Positions 39,027 to 50,182 of a DNA stretch of 59,835 nt are shown one piece after another. The stretch is from assembly GCA_947447995.1 (NCBI GenBank), contig CANFLQ010000006.1, forward strand, positions 1 through 59,835. Direction: 5' to 3'. The notes below the pieces were generated by a model. That model was not told the origin of the DNA. It did not search any database and worked only from the letters and a program-made list of their open reading frames with translations. A program made the translations under genes and the position numbers. Source of the DNA: Bacteroidota bacterium (GTDB lineage: Bacteria > Bacteroidota > Bacteroidia > 2-12-FULL-35-15). Position 1 is the first letter of the stretch. Every line of letters starts with the position of its first letter.

Positions 39027-42000
39027 ATGAAAAAACTTTATCTAGCATTATTAATCAGCATTGCAACATATAATTTATCAATTGCGCAGTGCACCCCTAA
39101 CTTTGAAGCTTCTCAAAATCCTATTTGCATAAGCGATTCTGTTTATTACACTAATCTTACAGTTGGAACAGTTTTAACTTACACTTGGAATTTTGGCTCA
39201 AATGCCACCCCTGCAACATACGTAGGAGAAAATCCTCCTAGAGTGGCTTACTCCACAGCTGGTACAAAAAACATAAGCTTAACAACCACTTGTTTTGCTT
39301 TAGGCTCCAATTGTATTGGAGCTAGCACTTTAGTAATACCCGGCTCTACCTTTACAATAACTACCACTTGCTTGCCTGTTTTTGGTGGTATAATTACTAC
39401 TACCAAAAGAACAACATCCGTTACCGTATTAGCTACCCCTATTCCTGCATTTACGTCTACTACTTCTGTTTGTGCAGGTGTTGCTATTGATTTTACATAT
39501 TCAGGTACAGTTGGCGCTACTTCTTATTCATGGAATTTTGGAACGGGGGCTTCGCCTAATACTTCTAATGATAAAGACCCCAAAGGCATTTTTTACAGCA
39601 CTTCAGGCACAAAAAATGTATCACTTACCGTTTCTAATGGAGCGTGCTCCCGTACCACTACTCAAATAATAACAATAAATCAAACACCTACGTCCAGTTT
39701 TTTTTCAACAGCACCTGCTTGTTCAACACAACCAGTTGATTTTACAAATACAGGAAATGGAACATCGTGGTCATGGAATTTTGGTGCAGGTGCAACACCT
39801 GGAACTTCGTCTACTAAAGATCAAGCAGGTGTTACTTATTCCTCACCTGGAGCTAAAACTGTAACGTTAACAAGCGCAATTGGAACTTGCAGTGTTACCG
39901 CAACTGAGGTTATAACAATTTACCCATCACCTACTGCAACGTTTACAACAACGGCTACTGCATGTACAAAAGCTAGCATTAATTTTACAAATACAGGAAG
40001 TACGGGTGGTAATTGGAGATATTCTTGGGATTTTGGTGCTGGTGCAACTCCTATATCGTCTTCAACAGAAAATCCTAAAGGAATTATTTATTCCACACCT
40101 GGATTAAAAACAATATTACTTACAGTATACAATTCAAATTGTATTACTACCACAACTCAAACAATAACTATAAATGCAACACCAACGGCTAATTTTATTT
40201 CTAATGCACCAGCTTGTACTGGAATACCTGTCGACTTTTTTAATACAGGCACAACAACTGGCGTAACATGGGCTTGGGATTTTGGATCTGGTGCAGCTCC
40301 TACAACTTCTACAACTCAAAATCAAGCAGGAGTTGTTTATTCAACATCTGGTGGAAAAATTATACAATTAGTAACTACAAATTCGGTAACAACATGTGCT
40401 GATACTATCAAACATGCAATTACAATTTACCAATCACCTAACGTTTTATTTGATATTGATACAGCAATATTATGTATGGGGCAAAAAGCTATTTTTACTA
40501 ATAAAGGCAGTACTGGAGCTAATTGGACGTACGTTTGGGATTTTGGTGCAGGCGCCCAACCTAATAGCTCAACTGCCGAAAATCCAGTTGGCATTTTTTA
40601 TAACTTTTCAGGTAAAAAAACAATTAAACTAACTGTATCCGACGATCATTGTAGCGCCACGTTAGTAAAAAAAGATACAATAACCGTTAATCCAACTCCT
40701 ACTGGTGGCTTTTCATCATCTGCACCACAATGTACCAACCTTCCTGTTGATTTTATAAGTACAGGAGATGGAACTGCATCTTATTGGAGTTTTGGAGTTA
40801 ATGCTAACCCTGCAACTTCAAATACCAAAGATCAGGCTGGAGTTATTTATTCCACACCAGGAGTAAAAATTGTAACGCTAGTTAGCTCAATTGGAACATG
40901 TAGCATTACTACAAACCAAGGAATTACTATTCACCAATCACCTATTGCCACGTTTACCTCCAATGAACCAAAATGTGTTGGCGATTCGGTAAGATTTAAA
41001 AATACAGGAAGCACAGGTGGTATGTGGACATATTTTTGGGACTTTGGACAAGATGCCTTACCGCAAACATCAACTGGCGAAAACCCATCAGGAGTAGCAT
41101 TTTCAACAGGTGGCACCAAAATTATAACCTTTACTATATTTGACGGATATTGTACTAAAACAGCTACTCAATCAATTACAATAAATGCACAGCCTATTGC
41201 TAAAGCAGGTAGAGATACAACTATTTGTGCTAATACAACCGTACAAATTGGTGCTGTTGCTACAGGTGGAACTTTGCCCTATACCTATTCTTGGTTTGCA
41301 CCAGTAACATTAAGCAACGGAACTATTGCTAACCCAGTTGCAACTCCTGTTGCACATATCACCCAATATATTGTAACAGTTACTGATAAAAACAAATGTG
41401 TAAATAAGGATACAATTATAGTAACAATGCTTGACCCAATTAAAGCGTATGCAGGTGTTGACGAAACAATTTGCCGATACGACAGTGTACAAATTGGTGT
41501 TGGATTAGTAGAGCAACAAATTTACAAATGGAAACCAGCGGCTGGATTAACTAGCACAATAAGCCCTAATCCAATTGCAAGCCCTGATTCTACTACAACG
41601 TATACTGTTACAGTTACTTATTCGGGTAAAGCTTGTAAAGCAGAAACAGATGAAGTAAAAATAACAGTTCACCAATTACCTTACATTGAAGCGGGAACAG
41701 TTCGTCACCAACCACGTCCAAACGATTCTACAACTATTGTTGATACCATAACAATTGGGGCAAGTGTTGAGTTAATTGCTATCGGTGGTTTGCAATACAA
41801 TTGGGTGCCTCCATATAGATTAGACAATGTTGGAATATATAATCCAAATGCTACACCCGATACCACAACAGCATATATAGTAACAGGTACCGATATTTAT
41901 GGTTGTAAAAACACCGATAGCGTAATTATTAAAGTGATAGCTCCTGCATTTTGGGTACCTACCGCATTCACACCTAATGGTAATGGAGAAAACGATGTAT

Positions 42001-42221
42001 TTTATGTAAGAGGAGCAGGAATTAAAAACTTTGAAATGGGAATATTTAATCGTTGGGGCGAACAAATTTTTATTACCAAAAGTATCGATTTAGGATGGGA
42101 TGGTAAACGCCCTATTAGTGGTGAAGAATTACCAGCAGGGGCTTATGTTTATTATGTAAAAGGTATACTTACAGATGGAACTTCTGTAAATTCAAAGGGA
42201 TTAATCAACCTGATTAGATAA
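39027..42221 (+). CDS. T9SS type B cargo, multi-PKD surface protein with gliding motility-associated CTD
   Basis: About 8 PKD repeats (W[DN]FGAGA.P...GVxYSTxGxK); CTD VPTAFTPNGNGENDVF, IFNRWG, GWDG, GAYVY, NLIR. Confidence 0.92.
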   Translation: MKKLYLALLISIATYNLSIAQCTPNFEASQNPICISDSVYYTNLTVGTVLTYTWNFGSNATPATYVGENPPRVAYSTAGTKNISLTTTCFALGSNCIGASTLVIPGSTFTITTTCLPVFGGIITTTKRTTSVTVLATPIPAFTSTTSVCAGVAIDFTYSGTVGATSYSWNFGTGASPNTSNDKDPKGIFYSTSGTKNVSLTVSNGACSRTTTQIITINQTPTSSFFSTAPACSTQPVDFTNTGNGTSWSWNFGAGATPGTSSTKDQAGVTYSSPGAKTVTLTSAIGTCSVTATEVITIYPSPTATFTTTATACTKASINFTNTGSTGGNWRYSWDFGAGATPISSSTENPKGIIYSTPGLKTILLTVYNSNCITTTTQTITINATPTANFISNAPACTGIPVDFFNTGTTTGVTWAWDFGSGAAPTTSTTQNQAGVVYSTSGGKIIQLVTTNSVTTCADTIKHAITIYQSPNVLFDIDTAILCMGQKAIFTNKGSTGANWTYVWDFGAGAQPNSSTAENPVGIFYNFSGKKTIKLTVSDDHCSATLVKKDTITVNPTPTGGFSSSAPQCTNLPVDFISTGDGTASYWSFGVNANPATSNTKDQAGVIYSTPGVKIVTLVSSIGTCSITTNQGITIHQSPIATFTSNEPKCVGDSVRFKNTGSTGGMWTYFWDFGQDALPQTSTGENPSGVAFSTGGTKIITFTIFDGYCTKTATQSITINAQPIAKAGRDTTICANTTVQIGAVATGGTLPYTYSWFAPVTLSNGTIANPVATPVAHITQYIVTVTDKNKCVNKDTIIVTMLDPIKAYAGVDETICRYDSVQIGVGLVEQQIYKWKPAAGLTSTISPNPIASPDSTTTYTVTVTYSGKACKAETDEVKITVHQLPYIEAGTVRHQPRPNDSTTIVDTITIGASVELIAIGGLQYNWVPPYRLDNVGIYNPNATPDTTTAYIVTGTDIYGCKNTDSVIIKVIAPAFWVPTAFTPNGNGENDVFYVRGAGIKNFEMGIFNRWGEQIFITKSIDLGWDGKRPISGEELPAGAYVYYVKGILTDGTSVNSKGLINLIR

Positions 42222-42228
42222 AATATTA

Positions 42229-42334
42229 AGTTCAAAGTTTAAAGTTAAATAGTTTAAAGTTCTGAGGGATTGCATCGACTTGAAACTAAAATGAACCAAC
42301 TTTAAACTTTGAACTAATTAACTTTAAACTATTT
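42229..42334. repeat. Inverted heptamer-repeat element (AAAGTTT / AAACTTT)
   Basis: Perfect 18-bp IR 42229-42246/42298-42315 and perfect 15-bp IR 42247-42261/42320-42334. Confidence 0.85.
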
Positions 42335-42341
42335 TAAAACT

Positions 42342-43385
42342 ATGAAAACAAAAATACACGCAATCTACTCAATGGCATGCTTATTATTAACATTATCTGC
42401 CGTTGCACAGGATGCTAGATTAACTCAATCGTATGCAAACCCCTTGCGAATAAATCCTGCAATAATGGGAGCCAATACCGATATGAAATTTATGCTGAAT
42501 TACAGAACTCAATGGGCATCAATTGACAAAGGATTTACAACCTATTCTTTTACAGGAATGTACCCCGTTTTTCTAAATAAAGGAAAAAGCAAACTGGATA
42601 TTGGAGTAAATGCTATGAATGATAAAGCTGGAGCTTTTAACACCTTAGACATGCAACTTGCAGTTGATTTTAGTAAAGAAATATCGCCAAACAATAACCT
42701 TTGTATTTCAATTATGGGTGGCTACGTTCAAAAATCACTTGATGTTAGCAAACTTACTTATGATAATCAATATGTTATGGGATCGTATAATGCAAATAAT
42801 CCTTCAAAAGAAGCTACTTTGGTGGATAATGTAGGTCACCCCGATTTAGGTTTTGGTTTTATGTGGTTTTTAAATCCTAGCCGTACCGAAGCTAAATTAA
42901 ATGCGTTTTTAGGTGTATCAGGATACCATTTGAATCAACCAAATGCTACGTTATTAGGAACTAGTGGTAAAATGCCAATGAGATTTAACTATCAGGGGGG
43001 AGTAAAAATTTTTGGTGACAACAAAATTGACTTTACTCCAAACATAAGAATCAATATGCAAAATGGTAACGTTGAAGCTGCGGCTGGTTTATATGCCGAT
43101 TATAATTTTAGCGACAATGCTAAACTTGTTATTGGATCATGGTACAGAAGAAATGATGCCATTGCATTTTTACTAGGGTTTGAGCACAAAAGCTTTACGG
43201 TTGGTTATAGCTATGATATGATTAACTCCAATTTGAATACTGTTACAACTGGCATTAATGCGCATGAAGTTACATTATCATACAAATTCAGCAGACTAGG
43301 TAAATCTAAAATAGCTTCCTTTGGTGGTGGTGATAATAGTTCCTCTGTACCATCGGTAAGAACAGGCCCTTTTGCTTCTTTTTAA
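42342..43385 (+). CDS. PorP/SprF-family T9SS barrel protein
   Basis: AQD..TQ...NPA, NYRTQW, HLNQP, GYSYD, HEVTLSY; directly follows a type B CTD cargo. Confidence 0.92.
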   Translation: MKTKIHAIYSMACLLLTLSAVAQDARLTQSYANPLRINPAIMGANTDMKFMLNYRTQWASIDKGFTTYSFTGMYPVFLNKGKSKLDIGVNAMNDKAGAFNTLDMQLAVDFSKEISPNNNLCISIMGGYVQKSLDVSKLTYDNQYVMGSYNANNPSKEATLVDNVGHPDLGFGFMWFLNPSRTEAKLNAFLGVSGYHLNQPNATLLGTSGKMPMRFNYQGGVKIFGDNKIDFTPNIRINMQNGNVEAAAGLYADYNFSDNAKLVIGSWYRRNDAIAFLLGFEHKSFTVGYSYDMINSNLNTVTTGINAHEVTLSYKFSRLGKSKIASFGGGDNSSSVPSVRTGPFASF

Positions 43386-43486: not shown

Positions 43487-44488
<1,002 letters not shown>

Positions 44489-44498
44489 TTATTTTTTA

Positions 44499-44506
44499 CA
44501 AAGATA
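44499..44506 (-). promoter_or_regulatory. -7 promoter element for gap
   Basis: TATCTTTG on minus strand. Confidence 0.55.
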
Positions 44507-44631
44507 GAATAGGATTTTGACTGTTAAACAGAAAATATCCGTACTTTGTTTCAGCTATTCATTGTTTATTGCAAACGATATGAAAATAACAAATAAAATG
44601 ATGAAATACGAAGAACCTTAACGCAAACAAA

Positions 44632-45258
44632 ATGATAAAAACTGTACATTATTTAAGTAAAGAAAGAATTGTTGCATTTAGTGACGGAGTAATTGCCATT
44701 ATTATTACCCTAATGATTTTGGATATTCACTTTCCAAAAATCACAAATACATTAACTGGAAATGAAATTTGGCTTGAATTATCAAAAATGCTACCTAGTA
44801 TATTTGCTTATATGGTTAGCTTTTATGGGTTGGGGGTATTTTGGGTAAACCACCATCACTTTTTTTTCATGGTAAAACACTCCGACAGAAATTTATTATG
44901 GCTAAATTTAAACTTGCTTTTTTGGCTTTCTCTTATCCCCTTGCCTACCTCCTATTTAGCCGAACATTACAATTCGCCTATTGCTACAACACTTTATGGA
45001 GCCATTATGTTTTTATGCCATACAAGTTTCGGGCTTCTTTTTTCTTATGCCTCAAAAAATGATTTAATAGTAAATAAATACAGTAAAAAAAGAATAAAAC
45101 AAATTATTCGGATGATTATTTTTAGTTGTATTTTATGGCTTATTGCTATTGCTGTTGGATATATTTCCACTTATTTTTCGTACGGATTAACGCTATTAAT
45201 TGCTCTCTTATATTTTTTACCTCAAAATATTGAAGTGGATGAAGAGGTTGCTAATTAG
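44632..45258 (+). CDS. TMEM175-family (DUF1211) potassium channel
   Basis: RIVAFSDGVIAIIITLMIL (FSD motif), FWVNHH, multiple TM helices. Confidence 0.92.
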   Translation: MIKTVHYLSKERIVAFSDGVIAIIITLMILDIHFPKITNTLTGNEIWLELSKMLPSIFAYMVSFYGLGVFWVNHHHFFFMVKHSDRNLLWLNLNLLFWLSLIPLPTSYLAEHYNSPIATTLYGAIMFLCHTSFGLLFSYASKNDLIVNKYSKKRIKQIIRMIIFSCILWLIAIAVGYISTYFSYGLTLLIALLYFLPQNIEVDEEVAN

Positions 45259-45282
45259 TGTTTTTACATGAAATTATTTGTT

Positions 45283-45290
45283 TACTTTCG
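45283..45290 (+). promoter_or_regulatory. -7 promoter element for the dlt-like operon
   Basis: TACTTTCG(CA), 14 nt before ATG 45305. Confidence 0.55.
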
Positions 45291-45304
45291 CAAAAAAATG
45301 CAGA

Positions 45305-45532
45305 ATGGATGATATTAAAAATTTTATTCAAAATGAAATAATGAACTTAGCTTTTATTAAAGTTGGATATGATGATTCAATAATTAAATCAAAGCTTTTA
45401 GATTCAATTTCGGTAATAGACCTACTGGTTTCTATTGAAGAAAAAATAGATAAAAAAATTCCTCAATACCTTATCAATGAGGATAATTTCGATTCCATTA
45501 ATGTTATTTGCGAAACATTAAAAAAACTATAA
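45305..45532 (+). CDS. dltC: D-alanyl carrier protein-like acyl carrier protein
   Basis: 75 aa; LLDSI phosphopantetheine Ser; ENFDS C-terminal motif; operon context. ATG 45305 preferred over TTG 45278. Confidence 0.8.
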   Translation: MDDIKNFIQNEIMNLAFIKVGYDDSIIKSKLLDSISVIDLLVSIEEKIDKKIPQYLINEDNFDSINVICETLKKL

Positions 45533-45541
45533 TACAGGTAA

Positions 45542-46720
45542 ATGAAAAAAATCATTCTCCTTTATTTATTTCCATTGTTTATTGCAATTGCAGTTTTCCT
45601 ATGTTTTAATGGCTCCTTGAGGACTGTTTTTTTTATGGAATCGAATTCTCCCAACGATTCTTCATTTCGTTTTTTGGAAAACTTTCGTGACAATGAGTTT
45701 TATGAAAATCAATTTTTAAGTAACAATGATAGCCTTGAGACTATTTTCCTTTTAGGTTCATCGGAACTTACAATTTCCACGGCAGGGATACCTTATAATT
45801 TTATTACGGATCATTTTAAAACCAAATTAAAAGGAATTGGACATGCCGGCAATCAATGTTTTTCAATCTACTCTCAATTGCTCGCCAATGAAAACAAGAT
45901 AAAAAACGCTCCAATCGTTATCATATTATCTCCCGTATGGTTTCAGGATAATAATGCAAAAGGGACATCCTCCTCTTTATTTTTAGAGTTTAATTCACCT
46001 CGATTTTTAAATAATATAATACACAGTACCCCCGATACTTTTAAAGAATACGAGACACGACGCATTTCAGATTTTTACGAAGAAATAAGTAATGCAAGTT
46101 TAAATTTAAAAACATTGCATTTTGAATATCAAGCCTCTAAAAGCCCATTACATAAATATTTTTACACACCAATCATTGCAATAGACAAGCTTTTGGCAGG
46201 ATTACAAAAAACAAATAACAATTTAGTTAAAGTTGGGCCATTTATCAGGAAACCAATTATATCTGAACCTATAAATATTAACTGGGATAGCTTATACGTA
46301 TTAAGTAAACAAGAACAAATTAATAAGTCGACCAACAACAAATGGTATATTGACAATGCTTATTACTCCGAATATATCAAAGGCAAAACCAGTACCGTTA
46401 CAATAGTTAAAGAAGAGGATAATCAGGAATTGAAAGATTTTAAGATGTTGATGAAACTCCTTAAAGCAAAACAAGTCAATGTTTCTTTTATCATTATTCC
46501 ATTAAATCCTTTTTATTATACCAATTCCAAGGAATTAAGCCCAATTATAAATTCATTAGAAAAAGAGATAATAGATAATAAATTTCCTTTCCTAAATTTT
46601 TGGAATGCCGACTCCACTACTTTTGACAATGGTGTATTGAGAGACATTATGCATTTGAGTGATTATGGATGGTATAAAGCAGATAAATTTATAATTGAAA
46701 CATATAAACTGTCGAAATGA
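45542..46720 (+). CDS. dltD: DltD-like SGNH aminoacyl transferase
   Basis: N-terminal TM anchor; LGSSEL catalytic Ser, IILSPVWF, DIMHL..YGW (DxxH). Confidence 0.88.
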   Translation: MKKIILLYLFPLFIAIAVFLCFNGSLRTVFFMESNSPNDSSFRFLENFRDNEFYENQFLSNNDSLETIFLLGSSELTISTAGIPYNFITDHFKTKLKGIGHAGNQCFSIYSQLLANENKIKNAPIVIILSPVWFQDNNAKGTSSSLFLEFNSPRFLNNIIHSTPDTFKEYETRRISDFYEEISNASLNLKTLHFEYQASKSPLHKYFYTPIIAIDKLLAGLQKTNNNLVKVGPFIRKPIISEPININWDSLYVLSKQEQINKSTNNKWYIDNAYYSEYIKGKTSTVTIVKEEDNQELKDFKMLMKLLKAKQVNVSFIIIPLNPFYYTNSKELSPIINSLEKEIIDNKFPFLNFWNADSTTFDNGVLRDIMHLSDYGWYKADKFIIETYKLSK

Positions 46721-46866
46721 AACTAAATAATGTAAATAGATTTTTTTTGAACACACTATTATACACGATGATTGTATTGTCACTTTATTTTTTGTACAGC
46801 CCATTAAACAATCATCCTAAAAATAAAACAGGTTCATTGGTTCAATTTGTATATCAACAATTTTAA
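46717..46866 (+). CDS. dltX: DltX-like small membrane protein (not in ORF track)
   Basis: 49 aa MKLNNVNRFFLNTLLYTMIVLSLYFLYSPLNNHPKNKTGSLVQFVYQQF; one TM; C-terminal F-x-Y-x-x-F; ATGA overlap with dltD; ends 2 nt before dltB. Confidence 0.88.
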   Translation: MKLNNVNRFFLNTLLYTMIVLSLYFLYSPLNNHPKNKTGSLVQFVYQQF

Positions 46867-46868
46867 TT

Positions 46869-48029
46869 ATGCTACCATTTAGTTGCTTTGAATTTTTCAT
46901 ACTAATGGCTATTTTCATTACGATTCTAGGCATATCAAAGTATTTTGTAAAATCAGATTACTATAAATATGTATTGGCAATATTAAATGCGTTGTTTATA
47001 GGTATTATCTATCCCAAGCCATATCATTTTATTTTTCTCATTTTATTTTCATACACCTTCACACATCTTATAACAGATGTATTTAAAATAAAAACAAAGA
47101 TTTGGGGTATTTTAATTTTGTTATTGCCAATGCTATTGGTGAAGTTGGATATTAAATTTGATTTTTATCCTTTTAAGTTAAACGATGCTATTTCCTTTGC
47201 AGGTCTTTCTTATGCCAGCTTCCGTATTATAGGTTATTATATGGATAAAGCTCCCGGCGAAAAAATGCCAGATTTTATAAGCTATTTTAACTTTTTATCA
47301 TTTACACCTACTTTGTTAATTGGTCCTATCGATAGATTTGCACGTTTTAAAGATTCGCAGAACAATGGTTTTTCATCTATTAATTCAGAAAATTTTATTA
47401 TTGGCTGGAATACTTTTGTAAAAGGGCTTGCCTTTAAATACATTGTTGCTGAAGTAATAGACCGATATTGGTTAAATCTATATCCTGAAACAAGTAAAGA
47501 GTTGTTACATATAGCAAATACCATGTATGCTTATTATTTTTATTTATTCTTTGATTTTGCAGGCTATTCATTTATGGCTTTAGGTATCGGAAAAATGATG
47601 GGGATAAATGTTCCTCTGAACTTTAAAAATCCATTCATTGCTGTTAATCCTCAAGATTTTTGGAGAAGATTTCACATCAGTTTGGGTGATTGGCTAAAAG
47701 ATTATTTTTTCAATCCTTTGTATATGTTTCTTACCAGAAAAAAGAGCCTCAAAAAATATCCTGTTACAAGGCAAAATATCGCCTTGGTACTAACATTTTT
47801 ATTAATGGGATGCTGGAATGGATTTAAGTTAAATTATATATTGAGCGGTTTACTATTCGGGGTATTTTCTGCAGTTCACAACACATACGTTGTTCAATGC
47901 AAAAAGAAAGGAAAGGATGTAGTTTTTGGCAACTTAAACACTCAAACTACAAAGGTAATAAGCATTTTTATTATGTTTAATTTAGCAGCTTTTGCTTTAT
48001 ATATTTTTAGCGGACGCTGTCCTATTTAG
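46869..48029 (+). CDS. dltB: DltB-like MBOAT acyltransferase
   Basis: GLSYASFR, GPIDRF.RF, YLFFDFAGYS, NFKNPF, FWRRFHISLGDW, MGCWNG, IFSG. Confidence 0.9.
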   Translation: MLPFSCFEFFILMAIFITILGISKYFVKSDYYKYVLAILNALFIGIIYPKPYHFIFLILFSYTFTHLITDVFKIKTKIWGILILLLPMLLVKLDIKFDFYPFKLNDAISFAGLSYASFRIIGYYMDKAPGEKMPDFISYFNFLSFTPTLLIGPIDRFARFKDSQNNGFSSINSENFIIGWNTFVKGLAFKYIVAEVIDRYWLNLYPETSKELLHIANTMYAYYFYLFFDFAGYSFMALGIGKMMGINVPLNFKNPFIAVNPQDFWRRFHISLGDWLKDYFFNPLYMFLTRKKSLKKYPVTRQNIALVLTFLLMGCWNGFKLNYILSGLLFGVFSAVHNTYVVQCKKKGKDVVFGNLNTQTTKVISIFIMFNLAAFALYIFSGRCPI

Positions 48030-48035
48030 TAATTT

Positions 48036-49550
48036 ATGAAATACGATTTTAGAACAAAAAAATTTACAGAAACAGAAGTTTCTCCTGATAAACTTGCGGT
48101 AGTTGGCAGCGAACAGGAGATTGATTGGACTACACTTAAAAACAAAACAGAAAATCTTGTTACTATTTTTAAGGATTTAAATATTCCCAATGGTCATCCC
48201 GTTATTATTTATGGTCATAAAGAACATTTATATCCGGTGGTTATTTTGGCATGTATGCACTCCAACACAACCTATATACCTATTGATAAAATTTATCCAC
48301 TTGAACGAGTTAAAAAAATCATTGAGATAACTGGCTCTCAACTATTGATTAACTGTTCAGACAACACTCTTGATCTTAAAATCCCTGTTGTTATCAATAC
48401 AGAGTTAAAAGTAAATATTAATTACACTCCAAATTTTACGGGTCGCATATATGGTAACGCCTCCGACCCACTGCAATACATCATGTTTACATCTGGTTCT
48501 ACTGGCGAGCCTAAAGGAGTTCAAATTACCTTAAATTCTATTTTAACATATTTGGATTGGGTTAAAAAAGATTTTGGATTTTGCTCCGATGATGTGTTTA
48601 TGAATCAAGCACCATTTACATTTGATGTATCGCTTTGCGATGTGCTTAATTCTTTTTCACAAGGAGGAACATTGGTATTAACATCCACCGATATAGTAAA
48701 GGATCAGGAAGTATTTTTCAAGAGATTAACCCAATATAAATGTAGCGTTTGGACATCAACACCATCATTTGCGTATTTATTTTTGAGGCATCCCAACTTT
48801 AACTCAGAAAATATTTCATCCATAAAAACCTTTTTATTTATAGGCGAAGAGTTGCCAAATAGAACTTGTGCTTTATTAAAAAAATCCTTTACTAATAGCA
48901 GAATCCTCAATGCGTACGGACCAACCGAAGCAACCATTGTTACTACATTAATAGAAATAACCGATGAGGTTATTAAAAACTACCCTACGTTACCTATTGG
49001 TTACCACATGGAAGGTTCTCAGATATTAATTGACAAGAAAAATCCGGAGAATCAGGAAGGTGAATTGGTTATTGTAGGTGATCATGTATCTATAGGTTAT
49101 TTAAATAATCCAGAGCTAAATAGCAATAAATTTTTTATTCATGAAAACAAAAGAGCATTTAGAACGGGTGATTTAGGCTATTATAAAAATGATTTACTGT
49201 TTTGTATCGGACGAAACGACGATCAAGTAAAAATGCACGGGTTCAGAATTGAGCTCAATGAAATAAGCAATGTTATATGCAAAAATAATTTGATATCAGA
49301 TGCAGTTACCATTGCTTTGAGAAGAAACAATGAAGTAAAAAAAATAATAAGTTTTGTAATCTTAAAAAACACTACTGAACAAGATATTTTAAATTCCGAA
49401 CTAACCCAATTTTTGGAAAAACGGATACCTTATTATATGATTCCAGGGGATATTGTAACAGTGAATGATTTTCCATATAGCGCAGCCCATAAAATTGATA
49501 AGAACAAATTAATTGCTGATTATTTAAAGAATATGTTACAGGATAAATAA
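48036..49550 (+). CDS. dltA: DltA-like stand-alone amino-acid adenylation enzyme
   Basis: 504 aa; PVIIYGHK, YIMFTSGSTGEPKGVQI, NQAPFTFDVS, WTSTPSF, NAYGPTEAT, RTGD, QVKMHGFRIEL, KID. Confidence 0.9.
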   Translation: MKYDFRTKKFTETEVSPDKLAVVGSEQEIDWTTLKNKTENLVTIFKDLNIPNGHPVIIYGHKEHLYPVVILACMHSNTTYIPIDKIYPLERVKKIIEITGSQLLINCSDNTLDLKIPVVINTELKVNINYTPNFTGRIYGNASDPLQYIMFTSGSTGEPKGVQITLNSILTYLDWVKKDFGFCSDDVFMNQAPFTFDVSLCDVLNSFSQGGTLVLTSTDIVKDQEVFFKRLTQYKCSVWTSTPSFAYLFLRHPNFNSENISSIKTFLFIGEELPNRTCALLKKSFTNSRILNAYGPTEATIVTTLIEITDEVIKNYPTLPIGYHMEGSQILIDKKNPENQEGELVIVGDHVSIGYLNNPELNSNKFFIHENKRAFRTGDLGYYKNDLLFCIGRNDDQVKMHGFRIELNEISNVICKNNLISDAVTIALRRNNEVKKIISFVILKNTTEQDILNSELTQFLEKRIPYYMIPGDIVTVNDFPYSAAHKIDKNKLIADYLKNMLQDK

Positions 49551-49582: not shown

Positions 49583-50182
49583 TCATTCCACCTTAATTAC
49601 TTTCTCTGTCAACAGTAATAAATTTTCATCAGAAAATACAGAAATTAAATAGCTGCCAGATTTCAAATCCGCGATTGAAATTATATTCTCTGTTGTTTTA
49701 ATTGTTTTACAAACTTTACCATTCAAATCAGTAATCACAATATTTTTTATTCCGTTGATAGGAACAGTTAATTCGTCATTAGTTGGATTTGGATAAAGTT
49801 TCAGGCTGTTATTCAAGTGCAAATTTTCTATAACTGAAGTAGTACTATTTTTAATTATTTGTCTCGAAAGCATTTTACGAGTGCCTAGCTTCAGTGCAAC
49901 TATATAAATCCCATCAATTAAAGAATCAGGATAAAAATGAACAGAATAATTACCTGCTGAAATTAAAGAATCCTTAATAATAGCCTTTACTACCTCTCCC
50001 CATCTATTATAAATAGTAAGTGAAACAATCTCATTATTAGCAAGTCCATAATAAATATCAGTCTCCGTAACAAATGGATTTGGAGTAATTTTTAAACTAT
50101 CCAAATTTTGAGAATAACTATTTGTAAACGATGAAATGAAAATGGCTATTGCAAAAGTTGTAAAAATTGTTTGTGTTTTCAT
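49583..50182 (-). CDS. Small T9SS cargo made of two CTD-like beta-sandwiches
   Basis: Signal peptide; ITPNPF..IYNRWG..GIYIV and LYPNPT..TDLNG..GSYLI..KVIK. Confidence 0.8.
   Translation of the reverse strand: MKTQTIFTTFAIAIFISSFTNSYSQNLDSLKITPNPFVTETDIYYGLANNEIVSLTIYNRWGEVVKAIIKDSLISAGNYSVHFYPDSLIDGIYIVALKLGTRKMLSRQIIKNSTTSVIENLHLNNSLKLYPNPTNDELTVPINGIKNIVITDLNGKVCKTIKTTENIISIADLKSGSYLISVFSDENLLLLTEKVIKVE

What the first reader, a model, noticed from the sequence alone, without database searches (positions are those of the whole stretch)
45283..49550. Complete rearranged dlt-like aminoacylation operon (C-D-X-B-A) in a Bacteroidota diderm
Seen: five tightly coupled genes (gaps 9, -4, 2 and 6 nt) behind their own -7 promoter, encoding a carrier protein, an SGNH transferase, a small membrane protein, an MBOAT and an adenylation enzyme. 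Known: DltXABCD D-alanylates lipoteichoic acid in Firmicutes; related systems in Dickeya/Pectobacterium (dlt), Bordetella (dra) and Vibrio (almEFG) modify the Gram-negative envelope. Inference: no teichoic-acid acceptor is expected in this phylum, the order differs from XABCD, and two key residues are altered. This may be an uncharacterised pathway adding an amino acid to LPS/lipid A, an anionic glycan or another periplasm-facing lipid. Best candidate for a new system in this window.
Basis: partly seen in the sequence, partly recalled or inferred. Interest (0 to 1): 0.88.

Follow-up and report, generated by a model that had tools for sequence, protein, structure and literature searches.

The report
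Gram-negative-type Dlt operon in Bacteroidota
A freshwater Bacteroidota bacterium carries a complete five-gene Dlt-type system for attaching an amino acid to its envelope; it belongs to the same little-studied Gram-negative branch as the Bordetella and Dickeya systems, whose membrane enzyme lacks the histidine thought to be universal in its family.

Summary
Five co-oriented genes at 45305-49550, with gaps of 9, -4, 2 and 6 nt, match DltC, DltD, DltX, DltB and DltA.

Both altered key residues are real:
- DltB has Asn317 where the MBOAT catalytic His336 sits.
- DltA has Ile269 where Bacillus DltA has the enantiomer-selecting Cys269.

Neither change, nor the gene order, is peculiar to this window.
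- The Asn marks one monophyletic DltB clade: 45 of 156 tips, support 0.998. It includes Bordetella pertussis, Dickeya and Photorhabdus.
- An Enterobacter cloacae plasmid carries D-X-B-A-C, the same D-X-B-A core, with a microprotein ending FEYQKF and Ile269 in DltA.
- Eight close Bacteroidota operons and one divergent one (G146) keep C-D-X-B-A with unrelated flanks.
- The operon is rare: 3 of 24 congeners and 1 full-length DltD in 400 phylum genomes.

So this is a Bacteroidota member of the known but poorly characterised Gram-negative Dlt/Dra family, not a new system. The acceptor and the amino acid remain unknown. No TagF-type gene was found. One LtaS/MdoB-like gene exists but occurs in all 24 congeners.

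The parts
45283..45290 (+). Candidate Bacteroidota -7 promoter box, TACTTTCG, 22 nt before the dltC ATG
   Evidence: Sequence. It has one mismatch to TAnnTTTG (consensus recalled). Seven of 8 relatives have a perfect box within 110 nt upstream of dltC, against about 5.5% chance per locus. Function not shown.
45305..45532 (+). dltC-like aminoacyl carrier protein, 75 aa; phosphopantetheine Ser34 in LLDS
   Evidence: NCBIfam DltC NF003464, 4.7e-06, 26.5 bits, below the cut-off of 68. A clade profile hits the S. thermophilus D-alanyl carrier protein at 2.4e-06, second after another small carrier protein. Ser34 is invariant in 9 of 9 sequences.
45542..46720 (+). dltD-like SGNH-type transferase, 392 aa, with a hydrophobic N-terminal anchor; GSSE (Ser73/74) and D368-x-x-H371
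   Evidence: PF04914, 2.8e-46, full length; TIGR04092, 127 bits, below the cut-off of 150. PDB DltD 6o93, 2.3e-10, with GSSEL and DxxHL aligned. Residue numbers.
46717..46866 (+). dltX-like membrane microprotein, 49 aa, ending F44-V-Y46-Q-Q-F49 (the FXYXXF acyl-shuttle motif)
   Evidence: PF12459, 5.7e-04, 19.8 bits, below the cut-off of 25. F44, Y46, Q47 and F49 are invariant in 10 of 10 Bacteroidota copies. Motif definition comes from PMC12148441 passages. The Enterobacter plasmid counterpart ends FEYQKF. Complex prediction with DltB gave weak support: 0.48 against a best control of 0.00.
46869..48029 (+). dltB-like MBOAT, 386 aa; His269 (equivalent to St His289) kept, Asn317 in place of catalytic His336
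   Evidence: TIGR04091, 3.3e-72, positions 2-379 of 380, 243.8 bits, below the cut-off of 375. PDB DltB 8jem and 6bug at about 6e-38, with GFWHG aligned to GCWNG. H269, W316, N317 and G318 are invariant in 21 of 21 sequences. The Asn clade is monophyletic with support 0.998.
48036..49550 (+). dltA-like stand-alone adenylation enzyme, 504 aa; pocket D197, V198, C201, I269, T297, I301; A10 Lys486
   Evidence: NF003417 DltA, 5e-134, 447.6 bits, below the cut-off of 476; the best NRPS model scores 1.2e-62. Alignment to B. cereus DltA 3fcc is gapless over the pocket. Residue numbers and clade variation.

Best explanation
This is a functional Gram-negative-type (Dra-like) Dlt aminoacyl-transfer operon in a freshwater Bacteroidota bacterium.

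Inferred mechanism, by homology to the reconstituted Firmicute pathway:
1. DltA adenylates a small amino acid, most likely D-alanine, and loads it as a thioester on the phosphopantetheine of DltC Ser34.
2. DltC docks on the cytoplasmic face of the MBOAT DltB.
3. DltB passes the aminoacyl group through the membrane to Tyr46 in the C-terminal FVYQQF of the microprotein DltX.
4. DltX hands it to the active-site Ser (GSSE) of the membrane-anchored periplasmic DltD.
5. DltD esterifies a hydroxyl on an acceptor facing the periplasm or destined for the outer membrane. That acceptor is not a classical TagF-made teichoic acid.

In this whole clade DltB works without the canonical His336. I infer that the retained His269 (equivalent to His289) acts as the base and that Asn317 is its hydrogen-bonding partner.

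Shown here: gene content, residues, clade membership, conservation and distribution. Inferred: every chemical step, the amino acid and the acceptor.
For: - All five components are present and match Dlt models best. PDB sequence matches go to DltB, DltD and DltA, and to DltC among the top carrier proteins.
- Catalytic features are retained: DltC Ser34, DltX FXYXXF, DltD GSSE plus DxxH, DltB His269, and the DltA P-loop, Asp197, Thr297 and Lys486.
- The operon is under conservation. Eight close Bacteroidota operons share C-D-X-B-A, with DltB 67-76%, DltA 61-73% (8 full-length) and DltD 43-62% identical to the window. G146 is more distant, at 45%, 40% and 30%. Flanks are unrelated.
- The Asn-type DltB clade has 45 tips, no His-bearing tip inside and support 0.998. 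It holds Bordetella pertussis, Dickeya and Photorhabdus; 117 of 120 listed homologues show W-N-G.
- A Dickeya dltB mutant is polymyxin-sensitive (PMC3544676 passages). The B. pertussis dra locus is cited as incorporating D-alanine into the outer membrane (PMC9858536 and PMC4448142 passages). So Asn-type DltB functions in vivo.
- The Enterobacter plasmid has the same D-X-B-A core, with the 4-nt D/X overlap.
- The host encodes an alanine racemase domain and an ACPS-type phosphopantetheinyl transferase.
- Contigs from other studies bridge both operon borders.
Against: - None of the four NCBIfam Dlt models that matched reaches its curated cut-off, and no NCBIfam model matched DltX.
- The histidine called universal and required in MBOATs is absent.
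- The DltA methyl pocket differs at three positions from the D-Ala pocket of Bacillus: L198V, M201C, C269I. D-alanine is therefore not assured.
- In Bacteroidota operon G146, DltA keeps Cys269, so the pocket change is not tied to the Asn-type DltB.
- I have no expression data.
- No acceptor gene is linked to the operon.
- D-alanine incorporation in Bordetella is known to me only from citing passages and a title. The primary paper was not held, and I could not see the Bordetella DltA residue at position 269.
Confidence: 0.72

Rival explanations
1. The machinery is the same, but the amino acid is not D-alanine. The remodelled DltA pocket (V198, C201, I/M269) selects another small amino acid, such as glycine, D-serine or another small D-amino acid.
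For: Three of the pocket residues named for B. cereus DltA differ. V198 and C201 occur in all 9 operons of the window's subclade; position 269 is Ile in 2 and Met in 7. Cys269 is the residue reported to enforce enantiomer choice (PMC8972799 passage).
Against: Asp197 and Thr297, which bind the amino group, are kept. The summed side-chain bulk of the three pocket residues is similar (my estimate, not a tool result), so the substrate should still be small. All 120 Enterobacterales DltA examined also have Ile269, Dickeya included. The related Bordetella locus is cited as a D-alanine system.
Confidence: 0.25
2. The acceptor is a glycerophosphate-bearing polymer or substituent made by the host's LtaS/MdoB-like enzyme. 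In that case the system is chemically a true teichoic-acid-like D-alanylation inside a diderm.
For: The genome has one 621-aa protein with a hydrophobic, apparently membrane-spanning N-terminal part (by eye) and a sulfatase-fold domain. Its best NCBIfam matches are lipoteichoic acid synthase (8.4e-16) and phosphoglycerol transferase I (7.4e-12). Its PDB matches include LtaS ectodomains.
Against: Its scores are far below the curated cut-offs (57.6 against 970 bits). Homologues occur in 24 of 24 congeners, while dlt occurs in 3 of 24, so there is no co-occurrence. It is unlinked to the operon. No TagF-type gene was found in the host or in 24 congeners.
Confidence: 0.15
3. The operon is a decaying or inactive acquisition, because DltB has lost its catalytic histidine.
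For: His336 is reported as required in DltB and PatA (PMC12148441 passages). The operon is rare and patchy. It is somewhat more AT-rich than its surroundings (GC 0.29-0.30 against about 0.34).
Against: All five frames are intact. Asn317 is invariant across 21 diverse sequences, and 117 of 120 Proteobacterial homologues have it. The clade includes genes with mutant phenotypes. Ten Bacteroidota operons keep all the motifs.
Confidence: 0.04
4. It is an AlgI/AlgJ- or PatA/PatB-type polysaccharide O-acetylation system, or part of an NRPS pathway, rather than Dlt.
For: MBOAT and SGNH pairs also acetylate alginate, cellulose and peptidoglycan. The adenylation enzyme also matches NRPS A-domains: LgrA by summed score, and NRPS models.
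Against: The only strong NCBIfam hit for the MBOAT is DltB, full length. The acetylating MBOATs carry the FXYXXF motif on their own C-terminus and have no carrier protein. Here the motif is on a separate microprotein, and an adenylation enzyme plus carrier are encoded alongside. The DltA models outscore the NRPS models by more than 200 bits. Over the pocket region DltA structures rank first. The operon holds only the five Dlt-type genes; no condensation or thioesterase domain appeared in the Pfam scans of these five, the TMEM175 gene and seven other flanking genes.
Confidence: 0.02

Closest known systems
Gram-negative Dlt/Dra systems: the Bordetella pertussis dra locus (BP2987-BP2991), Dickeya dadantii dltBAC plus dltD, Photorhabdus, and Enterobacterales chromosomal or plasmid dlt clusters
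   Same: DltB falls in the same Asn-type (W-N-G) clade. The D-X-B-A core order with a 4-nt D/X overlap, a microprotein ending FxYQ(Q/K)F, and Ile at DltA position 269 are all shared with the Enterobacter cloacae plasmid cluster. The host is a diderm with no known teichoic acid. The acceptor is likewise unidentified in Dickeya.
   Different: The phylum differs. dltC sits at the front (C-D-X-B-A) rather than at the end (D-X-B-A-C). The DltA pocket has V198 and C201 rather than L198 and I201. Identity to the Enterobacter proteins is only 34% (DltB), 40% (DltA) and 23% (DltD). The source is an uncultured lake organism, with no phenotype data.
Firmicute DltXABCD (S. thermophilus, B. subtilis, S. 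aureus, Listeria): D-alanylation of lipoteichoic acid
   Same: The five protein families are the same, and so are the carrier Ser, the DltX FXYXXF Tyr, the DltD Ser/His/Asp, the DltB His289 equivalent and the DltA core motifs.
   Different: The order is X-A-B-C-D in Listeria. DltB His336 is Asn and DltA Cys269 is Ile. No NCBIfam equivalog cut-off is reached. No TagF-type teichoic acid gene was found in the host.
PatA/PatB, AlgI/AlgJ and WssH/WssI MBOAT-SGNH O-acetylation systems
   Same: All pair an MBOAT with an SGNH protein and use an acyl-Tyr shuttle motif.
   Different: Those systems use acetyl-CoA, have no adenylation enzyme or carrier protein, and carry FXYXXF on the MBOAT's own C-terminus. 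The window's DltB ends ...IFSGRCPI, and the motif lies on a separate 49-aa protein.

Membership tests
Dlt pathway, Firmicute type (DltXABCD) | All five components (A, B, C, D, X) encoded together | tested here: met
   each ORF's best or only specific family match is the corresponding Dlt model.
Dlt pathway, Firmicute type (DltXABCD) | Scores reach the curated NCBIfam equivalog or subfamily cut-offs | tested here: not met
   DltA 447.6 against 476, DltB 243.8 against 375, DltD 127.1 against 150, DltC 26.5 against 68. DltX has no NCBIfam hit and scores 19.8 against 25 in Pfam.
Dlt pathway, Firmicute type (DltXABCD) | Invariant catalytic His of the MBOAT (St DltB His336) | tested here: not met
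   GFWHG aligns with GCWNG, so the residue is Asn317. It is invariant in 21 of 21 clade sequences.
Dlt pathway, Firmicute type (DltXABCD) | Second active-site His (St DltB His289) | tested here: met
   RRFHISL, with His269 invariant.
Dlt pathway, Firmicute type (DltXABCD) | DltX C-terminal FXYXXF acyl-shuttle motif with an invariant Tyr | tested here: met
   FVYQQF at the C-terminus. F44, Y46 and F49 are invariant in 10 of 10 copies. Motif definition from PMC12148441.
Dlt pathway, Firmicute type (DltXABCD) | DltD catalytic Ser plus Asp/His | tested here: met
   GSSEL and DIMHL align with the same motifs of PDB DltD 6o93. They are conserved in 10 of 10 operons.
Dlt pathway, Firmicute type (DltXABCD) | DltA Cys269, the D/L enantiomer selector | tested here: not met
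   FLFCGE against FLFIGE. In the window's subclade of 9 operons (window included) it is Ile in 2 and Met in 7; only G146 keeps Cys.
Dlt pathway, Firmicute type (DltXABCD) | Gene order X-A-B-C-D | tested here: not met
   The window is C-D-X-B-A. The Listeria record is X-A-B-C-D.
Dlt pathway, Firmicute type (DltXABCD) | The host makes a teichoic acid acceptor | tested here: inconclusive
   PF04464 (TagF type) was not found in the host (94% complete) or in 24 congeners. One distant LtaS/MdoB-like protein is present.
Dlt pathway, Firmicute type (DltXABCD) | D-alanine is the transferred residue | not testable with these tools
   Only pocket residues could be compared.
Gram-negative Dlt/Dra type (Bordetella dra, Dickeya/Enterobacterales dlt) | DltB belongs to the Asn-type (W-N-G) clade | tested here: met
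   45 of 156 tips form one clade with support 0.998 and no His tip inside. The window, 8 close relatives, G146, B. pertussis, B. avium, Dickeya, Photorhabdus and the Enterobacter plasmid all fall in it.
Gram-negative Dlt/Dra type (Bordetella dra, Dickeya/Enterobacterales dlt) | D-X-B-A core gene order with a DltX-like microprotein between D and B | tested here: met
   Enterobacter plasmid L101 reads DltD, 40-aa ORF (FEYQKF), MBOAT, AMP-binding, ACP. I saw only this one Proteobacterial locus. The order in Bordetella was not seen.
Gram-negative Dlt/Dra type (Bordetella dra, Dickeya/Enterobacterales dlt) | Confers resistance to cationic peptides, or adds D-Ala to an outer-membrane component | not testable with these tools
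   Known only for Dickeya and Bordetella (citing passages).
MBOAT-SGNH O-acetyltransferases (PatAB, AlgIJ, WssHI) | FXYXXF on the MBOAT's own C-terminus, and no carrier protein or adenylation enzyme | tested here: not met
   The MBOAT is 386 aa and ends IFSGRCPI. The motif is on a separate ORF, and DltA and DltC are present. Criterion.
NRPS assembly line | Adenylation domain embedded with condensation or thioesterase domains | tested here: not met
   The enzyme is a stand-alone 504-aa protein with only AMP-binding and AMP-binding_C domains. DltA models outscore NRPS models.

The most novel reading that the evidence does not exclude
The Dlt systems of diderms (Bacteroidota and Proteobacteria together) form one ancient, laterally mobile lineage. 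This lineage runs MBOAT chemistry without the supposedly universal catalytic histidine: the dyad is reversed (His at the first position, Asn at the second), the opposite of the Asn/His pair in eukaryotic MBOATs. It also delivers the amino acid to a non-teichoic acceptor, possibly an outer-membrane protein or lipoprotein rather than LPS. In the window's Bacteroidota subclade the remodelled DltA pocket may in addition load something other than D-alanine.
Probability: 0.3. Interest if true: 0.72.

Novelty: new member of a known kind. Interest (0 to 1): 0.5.

Why it matters
What the Dlt machinery modifies in bacteria without teichoic acids has been open since at least 2013. The Dickeya paper says the substrate 'remains to be identified'.

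This window extends that family to a second diderm phylum. Compared with the Enterobacter cluster and the named Proteobacterial DltBs, the lineage shows these shared marks:
- the D-X-B-A gene order (seen in one Proteobacterial locus),
- a DltX microprotein ending FxYQ(Q/K)F,
- Ile or Met at DltA position 269 in most members (G146 keeps Cys),

The last point bears on the current mechanistic model of bacterial MBOAT-SGNH acyl transfer. It offers natural variants for testing which residue activates the shuttle tyrosine.

The practical value of this particular locus is limited. It comes from an uncultured lake organism and I have no expression data.

Tried and rejected
I obtained taxon names from the search for homologous proteins on P0150 instead.
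- The one metagenome-contig scan used a generic MBOAT pattern and returned only MBOATs of about 30% identity. It gave nothing on the Asn clade.
- The ESM Atlas returned only Bacillota DltB clusters and told nothing about the range of the clade.
- The sigma-70 promoter and terminator scan was no better than shuffles.
- Flank comparison of 6 loci found no conserved neighbour. Pfam on 10 flanking ORFs gave unrelated functions; one was a GT2 glycosyltransferase.
- No RNA holder was listed for the stretch, so nothing can be said about expression.
- Complex prediction of DltB with the 49-aa protein gave weak support. The median score was 0.48 (runs 0.47-0.56) and the best of 3 controls was 0.00. Runs agreed in at least 45% of contacts, and partner pLDDT was at least 66. 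The tool's calibration: the mark was reached by 58 of 80 solved complexes and 2 of 110 mismatched pairs, but at 0.60 or under by only 7 of those 80 and by both mismatches. I used my own alignments, so these counts hold only roughly.
- The three roughly 600-aa MBOATs of the Asn clade show no Pfam domain in their extra C-terminal part.
- The primary papers on the Bordetella dra locus (PMC3811601) and on the DltX mechanism (PMC10664464) were not held. What I say of them rests on citing passages and reference lists. Supplements were closed and might list Gram-negative Dlt homologues.
- Searches for a Bacteroidota Dlt study and for a report of the His-to-Asn change found none. The library lacks most subscription journals.
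- Considered and rejected: AlgI/PatA-type acetylation, NRPS, pseudogenised operon and chimeric contig (see rivals).

Full report
**Observation**

The carrier gene most likely starts at the ATG at 45305 (75 aa), because the relatives' proteins begin at the same place.

Pfam and NCBIfam assign each ORF to the matching Dlt family:
- DltD: PF04914, 2.8e-46; TIGR04092, 127.1 bits.
- DltB: TIGR04091, 3.3e-72, over positions 2-379 of 380.
- DltA: NF003417, 5e-134. The best NRPS model scores 1.2e-62.
- DltC: NF003464, 4.7e-06.
- The 49-aa ORF: PF12459 (DltX), 5.7e-04.

No NCBIfam cut-off is reached, and the DltX match is below Pfam's (19.8 against 25 bits). These are therefore divergent members.

Sequence searches of solved structures agree:
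- DltB of S. thermophilus, about 6e-38.
- DltD, 2.3e-10.
- B. cereus DltA, 7.4e-100, first over the pocket region.
- The S. thermophilus D-alanyl carrier protein ranks second for a profile of the carrier.

**Host and contig**

The same contig carries a PKD/CHU_C type IX secretion cargo, PorP/SprF and a Por_Secre_tail protein. The closest DltD relatives come from records titled Bacteroidota, Bacteroidales, Bacteroidia and Sphingobacteriaceae MAGs, or are named Fluviicola sp..

The stretch is held by lake and freshwater metagenome runs of several studies. Contigs from two studies other than the possible source bridge both operon borders with 0-6 differences: X2 records 3 and 4, and X6 records 25 and 29. 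A chimeric join is therefore excluded at both ends.

**Residues**

Against S. thermophilus DltB, the window has GCWNG where the structure has GFWHG, so the catalytic His336 is Asn317. His289 is kept as His269. Passages of PMC12148441 and PMC11035591 call this His universally conserved or invariant in MBOATs and required in DltB.

Against B. cereus DltA, the alignment over the pocket is gapless:
- Asp197 and Thr297 are kept.
- Leu198 becomes Val.
- Met201 becomes Cys.
- Cys269 becomes Ile.
- Val301 becomes Ile.

PMC8972799 names Leu, Met and Cys as the methyl cavity and Cys as the enantiomer selector; its passage numbers them one lower, as Leu197, Met200 and Cys268.

The other catalytic features are intact:
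- DltD keeps GSSE (Ser73/74) and D368-x-x-H371.
- DltC keeps Ser34.
- The 49-aa protein ends FVYQQF, an exact FXYXXF acyl-shuttle motif as defined.

These are presumably the 'two altered key residues' of the finding, and both are real.

**Relatives in Bacteroidota**

DltD (PF04914) is single-copy in the host. Its distribution is sparse:
- 3 of 24 other species of the genus.
- 0 of 16 genomes from other families of the class.
- In an even draw of 400 other genomes of the phylum, only one further full-length copy, G146. Three other hits were short or weak.

The big protein collection still holds 186 homologues at E ≤ 0.001, of which the best 120 were listed. These have 44-62% identity apart from the window's own protein. 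Several are named DltD by NCBI or JGI in Bacteroidota MAGs.

Eight close operons (L002-L004 and L009-L013, the first three extended as L098-L100) and the divergent G146 all read C-D-X-B-A. G146 has a 52-aa ORF ending FIYQQF.

Identities to the window are 67-76% for DltB, 61-73% for full-length DltA and 43-62% for DltD. G146 stands at 45%, 40% and 30%.

Only the operon genes are shared among six loci; DltX falls below that script's 70-aa limit but is present in every operon. The neighbours have unrelated functions. The operon therefore behaves as a self-contained cassette.

A perfect TAnnTTTG lies within 110 nt upstream of dltC in 7 of 8 relatives, against about 5.5% expected per locus. The window's own box, TACTTTCG at 45283-45290, has one mismatch. 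The consensus itself is recalled, not taken from a call.

**The wider clade**

Among the best 150 representatives (50% clusters) of 19,359 DltB-like hits, 34 have Asn, 112 His, 1 Trp, 1 Arg and 2 a gap at this column.

In a FastTree of 156 sequences (280 trimmed columns, midpoint root), the Asn sequences and the one Trp sequence form one clade of 45 tips. Support is 0.998 and no His tip lies inside.

A search with a distant member, P0150, named that part of the clade: Photorhabdus, Dickeya, Buttiauxella, Kosakonia, Bordetella pertussis, B. bronchiseptica, B. avium, B. holmesii, Achromobacter, Candidimonas and Janthinobacterium. Of the 120 listed proteins, 117 show W-N-G.

So the missing histidine is the hallmark of the Gram-negative Dlt/Dra lineage, not a quirk of this window. 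Members of that lineage work in vivo:
- A Dickeya dltB mutant is polymyxin-sensitive, and the authors state that the substrate is unidentified (PMC3544676 passages).
- The B. pertussis dra locus, BP2987-BP2991, is cited as required for incorporating D-alanine into the outer membrane. [quoted passage not shown] The paper itself was not held.

**Gene order**

An Enterobacter cloacae IncFIB/IncHI1A plasmid, and a Klebsiella electrica plasmid with the same DltB hit, carry the Dickeya-type cluster between IS elements. The order is DltD, a 40-aa hypothetical overlapping DltD by 4 nt and ending FEYQKF, MBOAT, AMP-binding protein, and acyl carrier protein.

The D-X-B-A core and the D/X overlap are the same as in the window. 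Only dltC has moved from the end to the front. A Listeria record shows the Firmicute order X-A-B-C-D.

The Enterobacter DltA also has Ile at 269, as do all 120 Enterobacterales homologues examined, Dickeya and Pectobacterium included. Their other pocket residues are Leu198 and Ile201, not Val and Cys. Within Bacteroidota, G146 keeps Leu198 and Cys269. The V198/C201/(I,M)269 pocket is therefore specific to the window's subclade.

**Acceptor**

No TagF-type glycerophosphotransferase (PF04464) was found in the host (94% complete) or in 24 congeners.

The host has two sulfatase-fold hits. One is a 621-aa membrane protein whose best NCBIfam matches are LtaS (57.6 bits, cut-off 970) and phosphoglycerol transferase I. 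Its PDB matches include LtaS ectodomains and Vibrio VP1736. Homologues occur in 24 of 24 congeners and in 10 of 16 other genomes of the class. It does not track the dlt operon, so it remains only a possible supplier of a glycerophosphate acceptor.

An alanine racemase domain and an ACPS-type transferase are present.

**Mechanism**

By homology with the reconstituted Firmicute pathway, I infer the following chain: DltA loads a small amino acid on DltC Ser34. DltB moves it to DltX Tyr46. DltD takes it on its Ser and esterifies a periplasm-facing acceptor.

Because His269 is the only invariant His in 21 clade sequences, I propose that it acts as the base, with Asn317 as its partner. This reverses the Asn/His pair listed for eukaryotic MBOATs. 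That is inference only.

The complex prediction for DltB with the microprotein gave weak support: 0.48, best control 0.00.

**Novelty**

I found no study of a Bacteroidota Dlt system and no report of the His-to-Asn change in the held library. One paper lists dltA-D in a Parabacteroides distasonis genome table, and pipelines already name the relatives DltD.

I file the locus as a new member of the known Gram-negative Dlt/Dra kind. The lineage-wide features are of moderate mechanistic interest.

Noticed in passing
G000:C128, = L095:697-2562 (+): A 621-aa LtaS/MdoB-like protein with a hydrophobic, apparently membrane-spanning N-terminal part (by eye) and a sulfatase-fold domain. The best PDB match is Vibrio VP1736 (1.1e-42), and LtaS ectodomains score about 5e-12. 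Homologues occur in 24 of 24 congeners. Its function in Bacteroidota is unknown.
   Followed up: partly
L101 (Enterobacter cloacae plasmid NZ_CP071862, 140188-144240 of the record): A Dickeya-type dlt cluster (D-X-B-A-C) sits between IS1, IS903B and IS26 copies on a conjugative IncFIB/IncHI1A plasmid. The same DltB, at 84% identity to the Dickeya protein, is on a Klebsiella electrica plasmid. The Gram-negative dlt cassette is therefore plasmid-mobile.
   Followed up: partly
Proteins P0132, P0137 and P0138: Three members of the Asn-type DltB clade are about 600 aa long, with a C-terminal extension of roughly 220 aa and no Pfam match there. P0137 has Trp at the Asn/His position.
   Followed up: partly
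window 45316: One contig of run X2 matches the window from 45316 onward but carries unrelated sequence before it. This point is right at the start of dltC, so a co-occurring relative may hold the operon in another context (table 7).
   Followed up: no
window 44632-45258 (+): A TMEM175-family potassium channel homologue (PF06736, 1.7e-27) ends 46 nt upstream of dltC on the same strand. It is not found next to the operon in any relative.
   Followed up: partly
window 39027-43385 and 49583-50182: Type IX secretion genes flank the operon: a 1064-aa PKD-repeat protein with a CHU_C sorting domain, PorP/SprF, and a 199-aa Por_Secre_tail protein.
   Followed up: no
G000:C72:12292-12960 (-): The alanine racemase domain lies in an 873-aa open frame, which suggests a fusion protein.
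   Followed up: no
window 44001-48000: GC content is 0.29-0.30 over the operon, against about 0.34 across the window. This fits either membrane-protein coding or lateral origin.
   Followed up: no
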